From Octopus sinensis (Eukaryota), in assembly GCF_006345805.1 (NCBI RefSeq), contig NW_021828922.1, forward strand, positions 1 to 7,222: a stretch of 7,222 bases of DNA, read 5' to 3'. Shown piece by piece: positions 1-6,910 of this stretch (within the stretch, counting starts at the first letter, position 1; each line of letters begins with the position of its first letter). The translations under genes were made by a program, and so were the position numbers. The notes under the pieces were generated by a model. That model had not been told where the DNA came from and did not search any database. It saw only the letters and a list, made by a program, of their open reading frames with translations.

Positions 1-50
1 AATACCACTTTCCCAAAATTTCAGCCTTGTGCCTAGAGTAGAAAGAATTA
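1..50 (+). mobile_element. Possible 3' tail fragment of a SINE, cut by the window edge
   Basis: CCCAAAATTTCAGCCTTGTGCCTAGAGTAGAAAGAATTA resembles octopus SINE 3' ends as I recall them. Short, and supported by recall only. Confidence 0.35.
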
Positions 51-968: not shown

Positions 969-1150
969 TGTGTTGTGAATATATAAAAAAGGTTTTACAA
1001 CGTTATATACAGTTGCACACACCTTGTTGAATATGGTCGTATGCAACCACCATTTGAATTGTTATATGAAGAAACCAATTTCAATTTTCATATAAATTTT
1101 AAGCTTTATACAGTATTTGGTCTGCCTTTACCGAAAAAGATGATGATATA

Positions 1151-1436
1151 GGCCAGGAGTGGCTGTGGTTGTAAGTAGCTTGCTACAACCACAGGTTCCG
1201 GGTTCAGTCCCACTGCGTGGCATCTTGGAAGTGTCTTCTGCTATAGCCCCGGCCGACCATGTCTTGTGAGTGGATTTGGTAGACGGAAACTGAAAGAAGT
1301 CTGTCGTATATATTATATATATAAGTGTGTGTGTATATGTTTGTGTGTCTGTGTTTGTCCCCCTAGCGTTGCTTACCACCGATGCTGGTGTGTTTACGTC
1401 CCCGTCACTTAGCGGTTCGCAAAGAGACCGATAGAA
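1151..1436 (+). mobile_element. tRNA-derived SINE (family A, CORE-like centre), 3'-truncated
   Basis: A-box-like TGGCTGTGGTTG, B-box-like GGTTCAGTCCC, CORE-like CATCTTGGAAGTGTCTT and an internal (TA)/(TG) tract. A reverse-complement copy lies at 1437-1675. Confidence 0.85.
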
Positions 1437-1675
1437 CAAACCACAAACATACACACACACACCCACACATATATATATATAAGATATATATATATATATA
1501 TATATACTATATCGACGGGCTTCTTTCAGTTTCCGTCTACCAAATCCACTCACAAGGCATTGGTCGGCCCGGGGCTATAACAGAAGACACTTGCCCAAGG
1601 CGCCACGCAGTGGGGCTGAACCCGGAACCATGTGGTTGGTAAACAAGCTACTTACCACACAGCCACTCCTGCGCC
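1437..1675 (-). mobile_element. tRNA-derived SINE (family A), inverted and 3'-truncated
   Basis: Reverse complement reads GGCGCAGGAGTGGCTGTGTGGTAAGTAGCTTG...GGTTCAGCCCCACTGCGTGGCGCCTTGGGCAAGTGTCTT...GAAGCCCGTCG, which aligns with 1151-1306. Confidence 0.88.
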
Positions 1676-1859
1676 TATAATGTCTTAGTTTGGTTTTAAA
1701 ATATTTGAGAATGCTAAGCGGTCTAACATCATCTTTTTAGTCCATGAAATGTGGACACATTTGAAATCTTCACTTTGTTCATCATCACTGCACATAGGGA
1801 ATCGATGTTGTGCAAGATATGCACAAGAAAGGAAAAAAATCTGCTTCGGGTTCCCACGA

Positions 1860-2052
1860 CTCATGGCTGCTTACCCGGTTTCCATGGCGTATGAATGAAC
1901 AAGATTAGTCCGTTGCAGAGTTAATTATTTACACCTGAGTGAATTGGAGTAACGGGAAATACGCTTCGTTCAAGAACACAACCTCGTTCAGGAATCGAAA
2001 CTGCGATCTTGAGATCGTGAATGCAGCAGAGTAACCACTAAGCCACGCGCCT
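1860..2052 (-). mobile_element. Diverged tRNA-derived SINE (family B)
   Basis: Minus strand reads GGCGCGTGGCTTAGTGGTTA (A box) ... GTTTCGATTCC (B box) ... GTTGTGTTCTTGA. Colinear with the copy at 2113-2347. Confidence 0.8.
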
Positions 2053-2112
2053 TTGCTACACGTGCACAAGCTTGTCTTTAAAGTTTTGAGTGGTTCTCAA
2101 CTATTTCTTTTA

Positions 2113-2347
2113 TAGCCTAGCCAGGCTCATGGGCCCGGTTTCCCGGTTTCTATGGCGTATGTGTTCCCCAGCTGGACGGGTCGCCAGTCCGTCGCAGCGT
2201 TACTCATTTTTGCCAGCTGAGTGGACTGGAGCAACGTGAAATGAAGTGTTTTGCTCAAGAACACAACGTGTCGCCCGGTCCAGGAATCGAAACCACAATC
2301 TTACGATCATGGTGCTGACACCCTAACCACTAAGCCACGCGCCGCCA
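2113..2347 (-). mobile_element. tRNA-derived SINE (family B, CORE-like centre), near full length
   Basis: Minus strand has the A box TGGCTTAGTGG, the B box GGTTTCGATTCC, CORE-like TGTGTTCTTGAGCAAAACACTT...AAAAATGAGT and a 3' region GACTGGCGACCCGTCCAG...AGAAACCGGG. Confidence 0.87.
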
Positions 2348-2512: not shown

Positions 2513-2716
2513 ACTGGACTTCGAGATCCCTGTTAGCAAAATAAATCAGCATTAATGTACATATACCGGTGTACTTGCGGATTTAAGAACAACGAGAACG
2601 CAGGCTTTTACCTCCCGCAAATTTCGGGGGCTGGTTGTATTAGAACTACCCAACTCAGTTAAGGAGTTCTTGTGCTTCCCAGTCCTTAAATTCGGCCTCT
2701 CATCAACTGAAGCAAG

Positions 2717-3120
2717 TGGAGACGCAATGGCCCAGTAGTTAGGACAGCGGACTCGTGGCCGGAGGATCGCGGTTTCGATTCCCAGACCGGGCGTTGTGTG
2801 TGTTTATTGTGCGAAAACACCTAAAGCTCCACGAGGTTCTGGCAAGGGGTTGTAGCGATCCCTGTTGTTCTCTTTCGCTCCAACTTTTCTCTCACTCTTT
2901 CTTCCTGTTTCTTGACCCGACTTCCTACGCAACCGCTCAGCCTGGATGCGCATTCATCCATCCGTCGATGTTCTCGGTGTCGGCGGGGGTTGACCCGCTT
3001 TCTCTTCTGCGGGTCTTACGAATAGCAAAGGACCTCGTATCGGACTTCTCCCACTACAGAGGCGCGATCTTGCGAGCTCTGGGACGAAGACCGCCACGCT
3101 CAACAGCAACAGCAACAACA
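2717..3120 (+). mobile_element. tRNA-derived SINE (family C), apparently full length with (CAA)-like tail
   Basis: A box TGGCCCAGTAG, B box GGTTTCGATTCCC, a pyrimidine-rich central module at 2865-2912, a GC-rich 3' region and a CAACAGCAACAGCAACAACA tail. Confidence 0.8.
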
Positions 3121-3206: not shown

Positions 3207-3557
3207 ATACTGCTACTACTACTACTACTACTACTACAACTACTACTTCTACAATTACTACTACCACTACTACTACTACTACCATTACTACTACTACAAT
3301 GACTACTACAATGACTACTACATGACTACTACAACTACTACTACTACCACTACTACTACTACTGCTACTACTACAACTACTACCACTACTACTACCACTA
3401 CTACTACTACAACTACTACTGCTACCACTACAACTACTACTTCTACCACCACTACCACCACCACTACTACTACCACTACTACTACTACAACTGCTACTAC
3501 TGCTACCACTACTACTACTACTACTTCTACCACCACTACCACCACCACTACTACTAC
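3207..3557. repeat. (CTA)n/(CCA)n trinucleotide microsatellite
   Basis: About 350 bp of ACT/ACC/ACA triplets. Source of the poly-Thr and poly-Val ORFs. Confidence 0.97.
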
Positions 3558-3625
3558 GAATAGCAAAGGACCGCGTTTTGGACTTCTCTCACTACTGGGA
3601 CGAAGACCGCTTCGCCCAACAAACA
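3555..3625 (+). mobile_element. Second, internally deleted copy of the family C 3' tail
   Basis: TACGAATAGCAAAGGACC...GGACTTCTC.CACTAC/TGGGACGAAGACCGC matches 3017-3105 minus the 22 bp at 3058-3079. Confidence 0.85.
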
Positions 3626-3657: not shown

Positions 3658-3669
3658 TAGACCAGTAAC
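3658..3669. repeat. Left target-site duplication TAGACCAGTAAC
   Basis: Identical 12-mer at 4612-4623. Confidence 0.9.
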
Positions 3670-4611
3670 TATTTCTTAGAGGGGACAAACAAGGACAGAC
3701 AAAGGGATTAAGTCAATTACATCGACCCCAGTGCGTAACTGGTACTTATTTAATCGACCCCGAAAGGATGAAAGGCAAAGTCGACCCCGGCGGAATTTGA
3801 ACTCAGAACGTAGCGGCAGACGAAATACCTATTTCTTTACTACCCACGAGGCTAAACTAGAGGGGACAAACAAGGACAGACAAGGGATTAAGTCAATTAC
3901 ATCGACCCCAGTGCGTAACGGTACTTATTTAATCGACCCCGAAAGGATGAAAGGCAAAGTCGACCTCGGCGGAATTTGAACTCAGAACGTAGCGGCAGAC
4001 GAAATACCTATTTCTTTACTACCCACAAGGGGCTAAACATAGAGGGGACAAACAAGGACAGACAAAGGGATTAGGTCAATTACATCGACCCCAGTGCGTA
4101 ACTGGTACTTATTTAATCGACCCCGAAAGGATGAAAGGCAAAGTCGACCTCGGCGGAATTTGAACTCAGAACGTGGCGGCAGACGAAATACCTATTTCTT
4201 TACTACCCACAAGGGGCTAAACACAGAGGGGACAAACACGGACAGACAAAGGGATTAAGTCAATTACATCGACCCCAGTGCGTAACTGGTACTTATTTAA
4301 TCGACCCCGAAAGGATGAAAGGCAAAGTCGACCTCGGCGGAATTTGAACTCAGAACGTAGCGGCAGACGAAATACCTACTTCTTTACTACCCACAAGGGG
4401 CTAAACACAGAGGGGACAAACACGGACAGACAAAGGGATTAAGTCAATTACATCGACCCCAGTGCGTAACTGGTACTTATTTAATCGACCCCCGAAAGGA
4501 TGAAAGGCAAAGTCGACCTCGGCGGAATTTGAACTCAGAACGTAGCGGCAGACGAAATACGGCTACACATTTCGCCCGGCGTGCTAACGGTTCTGCCAGC
4601 TCGCCGCCTTT
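3669..4611 (-). mobile_element. Concatemeric tRNA-derived SINE (family D): one head plus five tandem ~184-bp bodies
   Basis: Units start at 3669, 3829, 4008, 4192 and 4376 (160, 179, 184, 184 and 185 bp). The head at 4561-4610 reads GGCGGCGAGCTGGCAGAACCGTTAGC on the minus strand. Each unit has a B-box-like GAGTTCAAATTCC. Confidence 0.92.
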
Positions 4612-4623
4612 TAGACCAGTAAC
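4612..4623. repeat. Right target-site duplication TAGACCAGTAAC
   Basis: Identical 12-mer at 3658-3669. Confidence 0.9.
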
Positions 4624-4872
4624 ACCAGACCAACAAACACTTCGTTGGCATTATATACACTAGTTTGGTTATTAAATTTTCATTAACGATGATCTTTGCA
4701 ACCTGAGCCATAGATCTGTCGCTTGCTTTATGACCAGCAAACACCTTGTCACGGGAAATATTTAAATATTCAATACTGTAGCTTTACCTAAAGTTTATTA
4801 ACCAACATCTTGAATATTTACAAATATCTTTCATATGCAGTTCTTACTGTCGGGGTGGTCAACGTTTTACCT

Positions 4873-5191
4873 TTTCAACAGGGTCAACGTTTTACAGTGA
4901 AAAACGACTTCACATGTGCTTCGGAACGCCTGATAAATGTGTTAACTTGCTCAGGGTTTCGAGAGCAATAAATGAGTCAAACTAGAATGAGTCTGCGCCA
5001 AAGGATGACCAAGATTAAAAAATTGGAATACAGAAGAATAGTATTAAGTGAAAGCATCGACATTTGCGCCTCTAATGAACAACCCAACTTTAGAATTTTT
5101 CCCTTTCTATAAATTTTCGGACGATGCAAACCATACTCAGCGCATGAGCAAAGAATCATATTTTATCGCAAAATATAAACCTTTTTTGAAT
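4873..5191 (+). pseudogene. Decayed GIY-YIG endonuclease domain of a Penelope-like retroelement
   Basis: Manual translation gives FQQGQRFTVKNDFTCASERLINVLTCSGFREQ*MSQTRMSLRQRMTKIKKLEYRRIVLSESIDICASNEQPNFRIFPF/YKFSDDANHTQRMSKESYFIAKYKPFLN. This fits the Penelope pattern FTC.S.N.IY...C..C...YIG.T...LR.R...KE..I....P.LN. Stop codon at 4969-4971 and a +1 frameshift near 5100. Confidence 0.85.
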
Positions 5192-5605
5192 GCTTCCACC
5201 ACAGATGATACTACTACAAAGATCGTAGAAGAATTCCCACGATAAATATATTAAGAACAGTCGTTACCCATAAATTTATTTAGAACAGTTCCTACTACTA
5301 CTGCTGCCACCACAACAGGTCACTTTTAGGTCACATGGCCATTAGATTCCATTGTCAGCCTCTAATACTGGGTCATACCAATCTCGTCTTTTTCCTTTTT
5401 CTTCTTCCCCTTCTTCATCTTTACTTTCTCCTTCCTCGGCTGCTGCTGTTTAAACCACCAAACTTCAGAACCAAATATTTCTCTGCACCCATGAAAGCTA
5501 TTTTTTCAGAACTACTACTACCTACTGGGACTTCACAAAGGAAAAGAAAGACAGAAAAAAGGAAAATGTCCTACCTATTTGAAGACTATGGAAATATTTA
5601 CAAAA

Positions 5606-6092: not shown

Positions 6093-6464
6093 AAAATCAC
6101 GAAATTAAACTGCATTATATACACATACAGGCTGCTCACACACTGTTCATCAACATGAACCGTAAATCACTCGATAGACACTGTTTAGAAATACGCTGTT
6201 AATAACATCTAAATACCTGTGGAATATCAATAATTAATTATAATTTATTATAATTAACTTCCAGACGGTTTAACTGATTAGAGATTGCTGCAGTGGTTGA
6301 AAAAGTTTTACTCTGAGTGATGTCTTGAAGAATTAATGTCTGTCGCAACTGTGAGAATTTGTGCTCTTTATTACGAAGAAGATAACCACAGCGAAGTTCA
6401 ATTATACTTGACAATTATTTTGAGCTTATCTAGCCATCCGTCATCCACACGTACATACGTATAT

Positions 6465-6698
6465 GGAATGGAAGCACTCCGTCGGTTACGACGACGAGGG
6501 TTCCGGTTGATCCGAATCAACGGAACAGCCTGCTCGTGAAATTAACGTGTAAGTGGCTGAGCACTCCACAGACACATGTACCCTTAGCGTTGTTCTCGGG
6601 GATATTCAGCGTGACACAGAGAGTGACAAGGCCGGCCCTTTGAAATACAGGTACAGCAGAAACAGGAAGTAAGAGTGAGAGAAAGTTGTGGTGAAAGA
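6465..6698 (-). mobile_element. 5'-truncated SINE (family C-related, alternative 3' tail) with 14-bp TSD
   Basis: Flanked by GTACATACGTATAT at 6451-6464 and 6699-6712. The minus strand starts with the module seen at 2865-2912 and ends in stem-loops plus a TTCCATTCC tail. Confidence 0.85.
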
Positions 6699-6910
6699 GT
6701 ACATACGTATATACATATAAACGCACACACATACGTACGTATACATGCGTACACAACTGTCGGTGGAGTGGAAAAACATGCAAGTTTCAAATGTGACGTT
6801 GTTTTTGTCATCTGCAGTCCAAAGATGAAGTTTTGTATCTTTCTTTGAAATCAGGTCTTTTCACAAAGGAAGAATTTTAAATAATTGAAAGTGGAACAGA
6901 AAACACATGC

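What the first reader, a model, noticed from the sequence alone, without database searches (positions are those of the whole stretch)
3658..4623. One head, five bodies: a SINE concatemer bracketed by a single 12-bp TSD
Seen: on the minus strand a single tRNA-like head (4561-4610) is followed by five near-identical head-less units. Every unit ends at the same terminus (...AAGAAATAG, one variant AAGAAGTAG), which joins directly to GTATTTCGTCTG of the next unit. The last unit ends at that terminus against the TSD TAGACCAGTAAC. Each unit keeps a B box, only the first has the A box, and no TTTT Pol III terminator occurs on the minus strand inside the array. Established: a TSD of this size is typical of LINE-driven target-primed reverse transcription. 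Inference: the ~940-bp multimer may have inserted as one event, from a multimeric Pol III transcript, from repeated RT template jumps to the 3' end, or from rolling-circle copying of a ~184-nt circular RNA. The last would resemble non-LTR retrozyme arrays, but no hammerhead core is visible here.
Basis: partly seen in the sequence, partly recalled or inferred. Interest (0 to 1): 0.75.

Follow-up and report, generated by a model that had tools for sequence, protein, structure and literature searches.

The report
SINE array built by self-insertion
This five-unit stack of a short jumping repeat (SINE) shares one exact joint with about 31,000 other places in the genome, and it likely grew in place, with new copies landing at one fixed spot inside an older copy and the stack then duplicating locally, rather than arriving in one jump.

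Summary
The array is real: one head, five head-less bodies, a 12-bp TSD. The last unit lacks 24 nt, and its final G belongs to the TSD. The junction is a family trait, with 31,246 exact matches. One-step insertion is not the main route genome-wide. Only one tail type sits inside arrays (306 of 306 flush junctions). Last units are older than first units. TSDs around arrays are twice as decayed as those of young monomers, and no dimer masters were found. The junction is an insertion hot spot: headed SINE copies (89 vs 4 at a control site) and two full-length L1/Tx1-like LINEs with a related tail sit there inside fresh 14-20-bp TSDs. Best reading: sequential self-targeted insertion with homology-led 5' joining, then local duplication. 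This locus is too young to date, so one-step insertion stays possible here (about 25%). No ribozyme was found. This scan reported the same phenomenon before on other DNA of this genome, and similar arrays are published for a clam.

The parts
4612..4623 (-). 5' copy of the 12-bp target-site duplication (GTTACTGGTCTA on the minus strand)
   Evidence: two occurrences in the window
4562..4611 (-). SINE head with the single A-box-like motif (4598-4588); young sub-subfamily 'S' (GCAGAACCG, TGTGTAGC)
   Evidence: 17 exact copies of this head variant in the genome
4377..4561 (-). Unit 1 (185 nt): S-type core, TAG-type tail, rare CCGTG variant shared with unit 2
4193..4376 (-). Unit 2 (184 nt), begins at the hot-spot sequence GGTATTTCG
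4009..4192 (-). Unit 3 (184 nt): CCTTG + TCTATG block, TAG-type tail
3830..4008 (-). Unit 4 (179 nt): same block as unit 3, five scattered missing bases
3670..3829 (-). Unit 5 (160 nt): likely the original S-type monomer body; 24-nt deletion in the tail; ends AAGAAATA at the TSD
   Evidence: that it is the original is inferred from its TSD start GTTA, as in S monomers
3658..3669 (-). 3' copy of the 12-bp target-site duplication

Best explanation
The array likely grew in place: a SINE monomer likely inserted first and made the 12-bp TSD, at least one later copy likely inserted at the fixed site C^GGTATTTCG inside it, and local duplication likely brought it to five units. Shown: the site is an insertion hot spot for headed SINE copies and for an L1/Tx1-like LINE whose 3' end resembles the SINE tail. 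Shown across the family: arrays are polar, with the oldest or a foreign unit last and an old enclosing TSD. Inferred: the LINE's endonuclease nicks the site, and SINE RNAs that end in read-through GGUAUUU pair with the nicked strand. Inferred: the cDNA then joins through its own head sequence to the old head upstream, so no second head and no new TSD appear, as proposed for R1 elements that carry upstream target sequence. When the top strand is cut downstream instead, a nested headed copy with a 14-20-bp TSD results. Inferred: unequal exchange then expands and homogenises long arrays.
For: Hot spot: a head follows GGTATTTCGTCTG within 12 nt 89 times, vs 4 after a control 13-mer. In 14 of 24 loci read the nested copy is followed by the duplicated site and the old body (12 by script after dropping one false call, 2 more by eye). 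L153 duplicates a private variant of the target. Two full-length LINE copies (98.9% identical; APE, RT and CCHC domains) sit at this base with 16-bp TSDs; LINE ends match tail A (scores 56 and 71, shuffle maxima 32.5 and 39) but not tail B. Polarity: the upstream unit has tail A in 306 of 306 flush junctions (sample partly chosen on that junction), and B tail + site occurs once genome-wide. Internal units are TAG/TAA 226, CAA/CAG 7; terminal units are 30 vs 110 CAA/CAG/B/C (17 unclassified dropped). Age: last vs first unit 8.5 vs 4.2% (65 B/C-terminal arrays, p=3e-8) and 4.8 vs 3.7% (61 A-terminal, p=0.03). TSD mismatch 3.8% in A monomers, 7.5-7.6% in arrays (p=0.003, 0.002); matched B monomers 11/155 and B-terminal arrays 23/322, both 7.1%. 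Monomer TSDs begin GGTA in 18 of 39 TAG/TAA copies and 0 of 14 CAA/CAG copies. Adjacent units share private variants in 22 of 41 pairs in arrays of 5 or more vs 3 of 39 in dimers (null 1.5%). In the window, units 1-2 share CCGTG (0 of 407 unselected units), and units 1-4 carry a tail type absent from 9 of 9 S-core monomers seen. L289 shows S head + foreign unit + S terminal unit.
Against: This locus cannot be dated: the TSD is perfect and units differ at 0-4 sites. All five cores are S-type, which needs homogenisation or an S-core/TAG-tail donor; two other dimers (L174, L294) show the same pairing, as a multimer transcript would also give. The simplest version (old head and first ~16 nt kept) failed: unit 1 starts A-type in 13 of 15 arrays with a B-type last unit, and 3 of 42 start variants are shared. 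Heads of B-terminal arrays are younger than matched B heads (7.2 vs 11.1%, p=0.02), and 8 of 65 are of an A-only type (0 of 52 B/C monomers), so head replacement has to be assumed. The B-type start follows an A tail 1,495 times but a head only 620 times, a very high occupancy for DNA targeting. Ten of 24 'nested' loci do not show simple nesting; in L128 and L141 an outer TSD encloses a partial head plus a full copy. TSDs were found in only 172 of 282 elements scored. Within arrays TSD decay did not correlate with either unit (n=54), and among very young first units the A-terminal difference was small (8/178 vs 19/528). Both LINE copies sit at the CGTATTT form of the site, so RNA pairing with GG is not required for them.
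Confidence: 0.62

Rival explanations
1. One-step insertion of a read-through multimeric Pol III transcript from a source array. It may hold for this locus even if it is not the main route in the family.
For: No TTTT in the array. Perfect TSD and near-identical S-type cores. S-core/TAG-tail + S-terminal pairing also at L174 and L294. Most exact B-type starts follow an A tail (1,495 vs 620). Heads of arrays look young.
Against: No shared masters among 80 A-B arrays: 29 pairs share 3 or more B variants vs 45.9 +/- 7.9 in a load-preserving null, and 1 of those 29 pairs has a like A unit vs 11.5% background (a column-shuffle null gave an excess, 29 vs 16). Array TSDs are old. Five arrays that begin with a 5'-truncated unit show no enclosing TSD (0 of 5). 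The source array would itself need an origin.
Confidence: 0.2
2. RT template jumps during one insertion: RT stalls at the head/body hairpin of one SINE RNA, and the cDNA end anneals to the GGUAUUU end of another RNA.
For: Explains polarity, unrelated haplotypes in dimers, young heads and loci such as L128 and L141. The junction lies in a predicted hairpin.
Against: Predicts a TSD as young as unit 1; the observed decay equals that of B monomers (7.1 vs 7.1%) and is twice that of A monomers. It does not explain LINEs and headed SINEs inside fresh TSDs at the same base.
Confidence: 0.1
3. Ectopic gene conversion or recombinational repair copies a ready-made junction from another array into a monomer, with no new TPRT.
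For: Would give an old TSD, a young head and an old terminal unit; SINE haplotypes are highly mosaic.
Against: The terminal unit shows no clear young 5' part (7.1, 8.3, 9.0% along the core). B-type core letters appear in 0 of 65 units upstream of B. It gives no reason why only TAG/TAA tails are internal.
Confidence: 0.05
4. Rolling-circle reverse transcription of a ~184-nt circular RNA, as in retrozymes.
For: The ends of a unit can pair (GAAAUA/UAUUUC closes the predicted fold); long arrays are homogeneous.
Against: No ribozyme. The fold is no more stable than shuffles (z 0.16). Terminal units are mostly of another type. The window's units form two haplotype blocks, not a star. All arrays would need a separate jump to gain a head.
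Confidence: 0.03

Closest known systems
TSD1-(SINE)n-TSD1 arrays of the blood clam Scapharca broughtonii (PMC11481361; passages of sections 9, 15, 16 seen)
   Same: A first SINE with a full head, head-truncated repeats, one enclosing TSD.
   Different: There the internal units have truncated tails and the authors suggest unequal recombination. Here internal tails are complete, the junction recurs 31,246 times and coincides with an insertion hot spot.
SINEU / Tx1-Mar of crocodilians (PMC4494074; abstract and passages seen)
   Same: SINE and L1/Tx1-type LINE share a preferred target inside a repeat; tandem SINEU-3 copies are ascribed to sequential insertion.
   Different: There the target is a Mariner transposon and tandem copies sandwich a TSD. 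Here the target is the SINE itself and most tandem copies are flush and head-less.
R1 elements of the Drosophila melanogaster group (PMC2718515; passages of sections 9, 10, 15, 18 seen)
   Same: RNA with flanking target sequence is proposed to anneal at both junctions: an upstream cut gives a precise junction without TSD, a downstream cut gives TSD plus duplicated upstream sequence, like the flush and nested forms here.
   Different: R1 is autonomous and targets 28S rDNA; the parallel is an analogy and was not tested biochemically.
SINE-derived satellites (sSat) of squamates (PMC10702118; passages seen)
   Same: Tandem repeats of part of a SINE; long arrays are more uniform.
   Different: The initial duplication is ascribed mainly to unequal recombination; no fixed insertion-born junction appeared in the passages seen.
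Non-LTR retrozymes
   Same: Tandem arrays of short units.
   Different: No hammerhead; A/B-box head; LINE-derived tail.

Membership tests
SINE (SINEBase definition, PMC3531059) | Short (<1 kb) interspersed repeat, at least 100 copies | tested here: met
   233-nt monomer; 38,721 exact head matches; 65 of 82 head-anchored elements have one body
SINE (SINEBase definition, PMC3531059) | Head derived from a Pol III RNA (tRNA) | tested here: inconclusive
   A- and B-box-like motifs present (consensus recalled); ARAGORN and Rfam find no tRNA
SINE (SINEBase definition, PMC3531059) | Retrotransposed (TSDs) | tested here: met
   TSD in 67 of 104 A monomers; null 3 of 300
SINE (SINEBase definition, PMC3531059) | Transcribed by Pol III | not testable with these tools
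   Only contigs were on offer for RNA runs
Stringent SINE/LINE pair | 3' tail shared with a LINE | tested here: met
   Tail A aligns to two LINE 3' ends far above shuffles; tail B does not
Stringent SINE/LINE pair | Mobilisation by that LINE's proteins | not testable with these tools
   Needs a retrotransposition assay; a related LINE with a closer tail (L069) sits elsewhere, so the partner family is not fixed
Target-specific Tx1-clade LINE (partner) | APE endonuclease + RT of the L1/Tx1 group | tested here: met
   PF03372, PF00078, PF00098; best solved match human L1 ORF2p E 5e-56 vs R2 1e-20
Target-specific Tx1-clade LINE (partner) | Placement in the Tx1 clade by RT phylogeny | not tested
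   No tree built; the label Tx1 comes from earlier scan notes
Target-specific Tx1-clade LINE (partner) | Recurrent insertion at one site | tested here: inconclusive
   2 of 2 full-length copies at the same base, both found through SINE-anchored loci; a 66%-identical relative is not at the site
TSD1-(SINE)n-TSD1 arrays (PMC11481361) | First unit headed, others head-truncated at one position, one enclosing TSD | tested here: met
TSD1-(SINE)n-TSD1 arrays (PMC11481361) | Internal units with truncated 3' tails | tested here: not met
   Internal units end at the same AAGAAATA as monomers
Retrozyme | Hammerhead ribozyme in each unit | tested here: not met
   No Rfam hit at E<=10; no CTGANGA..GAAA core on either strand
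Retrozyme | Circular RNA intermediate | not testable with these tools
   No raw RNA reads available
MetaSINE / Deu(Nin) superfamily or octopus OK/OR SINEs | Homology to the published central domain or consensus | not tested
   Resemblance of the core is recalled only; alignments are in figures not held; four motifs were not found in any text

The most novel reading that the evidence does not exclude
A self-reinforcing loop: each SINE-in-SINE insertion creates a source whose read-through RNA ends in the target sequence itself (GGUAUUU), so the RNA guides the partner L1/Tx1-like enzyme back to the same base of other SINE copies and overwrites the old head. The SINE thus supplies its own landing pads and those of its LINE, and seeds satellites by RNA-guided homing.
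Probability: 0.3. Interest if true: 0.8.

Novelty: new variant of a known kind. Interest (0 to 1): 0.52.

Why it matters
It gives a countable route from a dispersed SINE to tandem repeats: a retrotransposition hot spot makes the first dimer in exact register, and recombination expands it. A single TSD around an array then does not mean a single insertion event, which matters for dating and annotating repeats. Tens of thousands of natural junctions, with subfamilies that differ in target start, make it testable whether target choice comes from the LINE endonuclease or from the RNA's 3' end, and how the 5' junction of TPRT is completed.

Tried and rejected
Second allele or empty site in the assembly: none, the 5' flank 4624-4870 is single-copy. 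Sequencing runs: contigs of X1, X3 and X4 carry the same 5' junction (4585-4900, no differences) but none spans the array; X21 had too few reads. X4, X5 and X7 gave no cover of the 3' flank, which proves nothing. No RNA test was possible. 'Cryptic TSD' (start of unit 1 equals start of last unit): tested, not supported. AATTGAC and TGTGTAGC as private mutations of this locus: rejected, they mark a small young subfamily. Dimer masters: no excess in 65 arrays (9 vs 7.1), an excess in 80 under a column shuffle (29 vs 16), none once mutation load was kept (29 vs 46). A pattern for non-SINE tails at the site gave 5 hits: four SINE-derived and one short tail remnant. Folding: no unusual stability (z -0.49 and 0.16). 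Head age did not correlate with first or last unit. Literature: searches found no description of this self-targeted array in cephalopods (84 was for the R1/R2 precedent). Ohshima and Okada 1994 was not read, Albertin 2015 is not held, no supplements were read, and repeat databases were not available; these may hold the family. PMC13282606 (part 1 of 3 and passages read) does not mention such arrays in what was seen. The Atlas look-up of the LINE protein gave no result.

Full report
Observation. The array is as described: on the minus strand a 49-nt head, five bodies of 185, 184, 184, 179 and 160 nt, and the 12-mer TAGACCAGTAAC on both sides. The true terminus is AAGAAATA. The following G is the first base of the TSD at the array's end and the first G of GGTATTTCG at junctions. 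Unit 5 carries a 24-nt tail deletion unique in the genome and confirmed by one contig of run X1. No tRNA, Rfam family or hammerhead core was found. The window is a whole 7,222-base contig of a 2.7-Gb genome, and its 5' flank has no second copy. That the animal is an octopus is recalled from the repeat and stated in earlier scan notes; it was not tested.

The junction is a family trait. AAAGAAATAGGTATTTCGTCTG has 31,246 exact matches, control 0; the head 18-mer has 38,721. Of 82 elements picked by an exact head on contig C1, 17 have two or more bodies. I annotated 512 elements in 376 sequences (1.75 Mb) and dropped 34 at locus edges; earlier steps used 244 and 373 elements. The sample is enriched on purpose for arrays, nested copies, B-type starts and the window's variants, so only the head-anchored set gives a rate. 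The shared head and core carry three tails: A (as here, with sub-types TAG, TAA, CAA, CAG), and the older B and C.

Arrays are polar. The upstream unit has tail A in 306 of 306 flush junctions, and a B tail followed by the site occurs once in the genome. Internal units are TAG/TAA in 226 and CAA/CAG in 7; terminal units are TAG/TAA in 30 and CAA/CAG/B/C in 110, with 17 unclassified units left out. Last units are more diverged than first units: 8.5 vs 4.2% in 65 B/C-terminal arrays, 4.8 vs 3.7% in 61 A-terminal arrays. Adjacent units of A-A dimers have like haplotypes in 6 of 41 pairs (random 10%), but in 30 of 45 pairs in arrays of five or more, where 22 of 41 pairs share private variants (random 1.5%). 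So dimers join unrelated copies, and long arrays were likely expanded locally.

The enclosing TSD is old. TSDs were found in 67 of 104 A monomers, 31 of 52 B/C monomers, 33 of 61 A-terminal and 41 of 65 B/C-terminal arrays (null 3 of 300). Mismatch between the two copies is 35/927 in A monomers, 37/495 and 43/563 in arrays (p 0.003 and 0.002) and 43/449 in B/C monomers. With the same exact B start, monomers give 11/155 and arrays 23/322. With first-unit divergence held at 2-7% the gap stays (24/589 vs 24/316 and 24/353). Among very young first units it is small for A-terminal arrays (8/178 vs 19/528), and within arrays TSD decay did not correlate with either unit. Dimer masters were not found: among 80 A-B arrays, 29 pairs share three or more B variants against 46 expected when mutation load is kept, and 1 of these 29 pairs has a like A unit. 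A cruder null had shown an excess.

The junction is an insertion hot spot. A head follows GGTATTTCGTCTG within 12 nt 89 times, against 4 after a control 13-mer; some of the 89 are repeats within one array. In 14 of 24 distinct loci the new headed copy is followed by the duplicated site and the old body, and L153 duplicates a private variant of the target. The other 10 do not show simple nesting, and two (L128, L141) fit a one-step template jump or a later collapse. After earlier scan notes pointed to a LINE at this site, I found two full-length 5.3-kb copies, 98.9% identical, at the same base with 16-bp TSDs (L310, L316). They have APE, RT and CCHC domains, are closest to L1 ORF2p among solved structures and have broken frames. 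Their 3' end, and more closely that of a 66%-identical relative (L069) inserted elsewhere, aligns with tail A and not tail B. At ordinary sites, monomer TSDs begin GGTA in 18 of 39 TAG/TAA copies and in 0 of 14 CAA/CAG copies, which prefer AGAA or GATA. A tail-specific target start fits pairing of the RNA's 3' extension with the primer strand (inference). Both LINE copies sit at the CGTATTT form of the site, which leaves room for endonuclease specificity.

How the head is lost is inferred. The simple model, in which the old head and about 16 nt of the old body are kept, failed. Heads of B-terminal arrays are intermediate in age (7.2% vs 11.1% in matched B monomers and 4.7% in A monomers, the last biased young by selection), and 8 of 65 are of an A-only type. 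L289 keeps the target's head. Arrays that begin with a 5'-truncated unit lack both old head and TSD (0 of 5). This fits cDNA joining to upstream DNA by homology, with variable replacement of the old head. PMC2718515 (passages seen) proposes the same two outcomes for R1: a precise TSD-less junction after an upstream cut, and TSD plus duplicated upstream sequence after a downstream cut.

This locus. Head and cores belong to a small young sub-subfamily S (17 exact heads; 45 exact core 63-mers). The nine S-core monomers seen have CAA tails and are followed by GATA, GATG, GTTA or CATA; one is followed by GTTACT, like the window (one search displayed 8 of the 16 other loci). Unit 5 and the TSD therefore likely record an S monomer insertion. 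Units 1-4 have TAG tails, so they cannot be plain copies of such a monomer. Units 1-2 share CCGTG (0 of 407 unselected units) and TCTGTG, units 3-4 have CCTTG and TCTATG: two blocks, as expected from insertion followed by unequal exchange, and not from one circle. The uniform S cores and two similar dimers (L174, L294) keep a one-step multimer or template-jump origin open for this locus. Contigs from runs of two other organism labels carry the same 5' junction but do not show the unit number.

Comparison. Head-plus-bodies arrays in one TSD are published for a clam (PMC11481361, passages), SINE-derived satellites for reptiles (PMC10702118, passages), and shared SINE/Tx1 targeting with sequential tandem insertion for crocodilians (PMC4494074, abstract and passages). 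PMC4758252, PMC4824008 and PMC3531059 (passages) did not let me name the family. A SINE whose preferred target is itself, at this scale, was not found in searches, but key octopus papers and repeat databases were out of reach. This scan has reported the same system from several other windows of this genome; those notes are not independent support.

Verdict. A real feature and a new variant of known kinds. Sequential self-targeted insertion plus local expansion 0.62; one-step multimeric transcript 0.20; template jumps 0.10; conversion 0.05; rolling circle 0.03. Interest 0.52.

Noticed in passing
L310:4052-9428 and L316 (G000:C1, about 829-834 kb and 11.523-11.528 Mb): Two near-identical full-length L1/Tx1-like LINEs (broken frames) inserted at the SINE hot spot with 16-bp TSDs; the first is followed by further SINE units.
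   Followed up: partly
L069:about 5700-9060: A related LINE (66% identity) whose 3' end matches SINE tail A more closely (score 71) but is inserted outside the SINE.
   Followed up: partly
L009, L010, L076, L127, L150, L152 (head position 17): A second hot spot, AGAAACGTTAGC in the head, that leaves 33-nt spacers between units; CAA/CAG tails are frequent there.
   Followed up: partly
L129, L131, L136; G000:C3430 and C7:15.32 Mb: Tandem arrays of the 65-67-nt head + duplicated site unit, the mirror image of the head-less arrays.
   Followed up: no
window 1147-1679: Inverted pair of another abundant SINE-like repeat around an (AT)n tract (76% arms; about 200 hits each in fetched loci).
   Followed up: no
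window 1907-2345, 2700-3110, 6460-6720: Further interspersed repeats, about 75 hits each in fetched loci.
   Followed up: no
window 4870-5250: Old interspersed repeat, 78-82% identical to at least 39 other loci.
   Followed up: no
window 3017-3057 and 3555-3595: A 41-bp direct repeat on either side of the (TAC)n tract 3208-3557, just 3' of the array.
   Followed up: no
window 10-47: Fragment of a B-type tail of the same SINE family at the contig start.
   Followed up: no
L043: A SINE monomer inserted at GGTAAG inside what looks like the repeat family of window 1147-1679, consistent with the GGTA preference.
   Followed up: no
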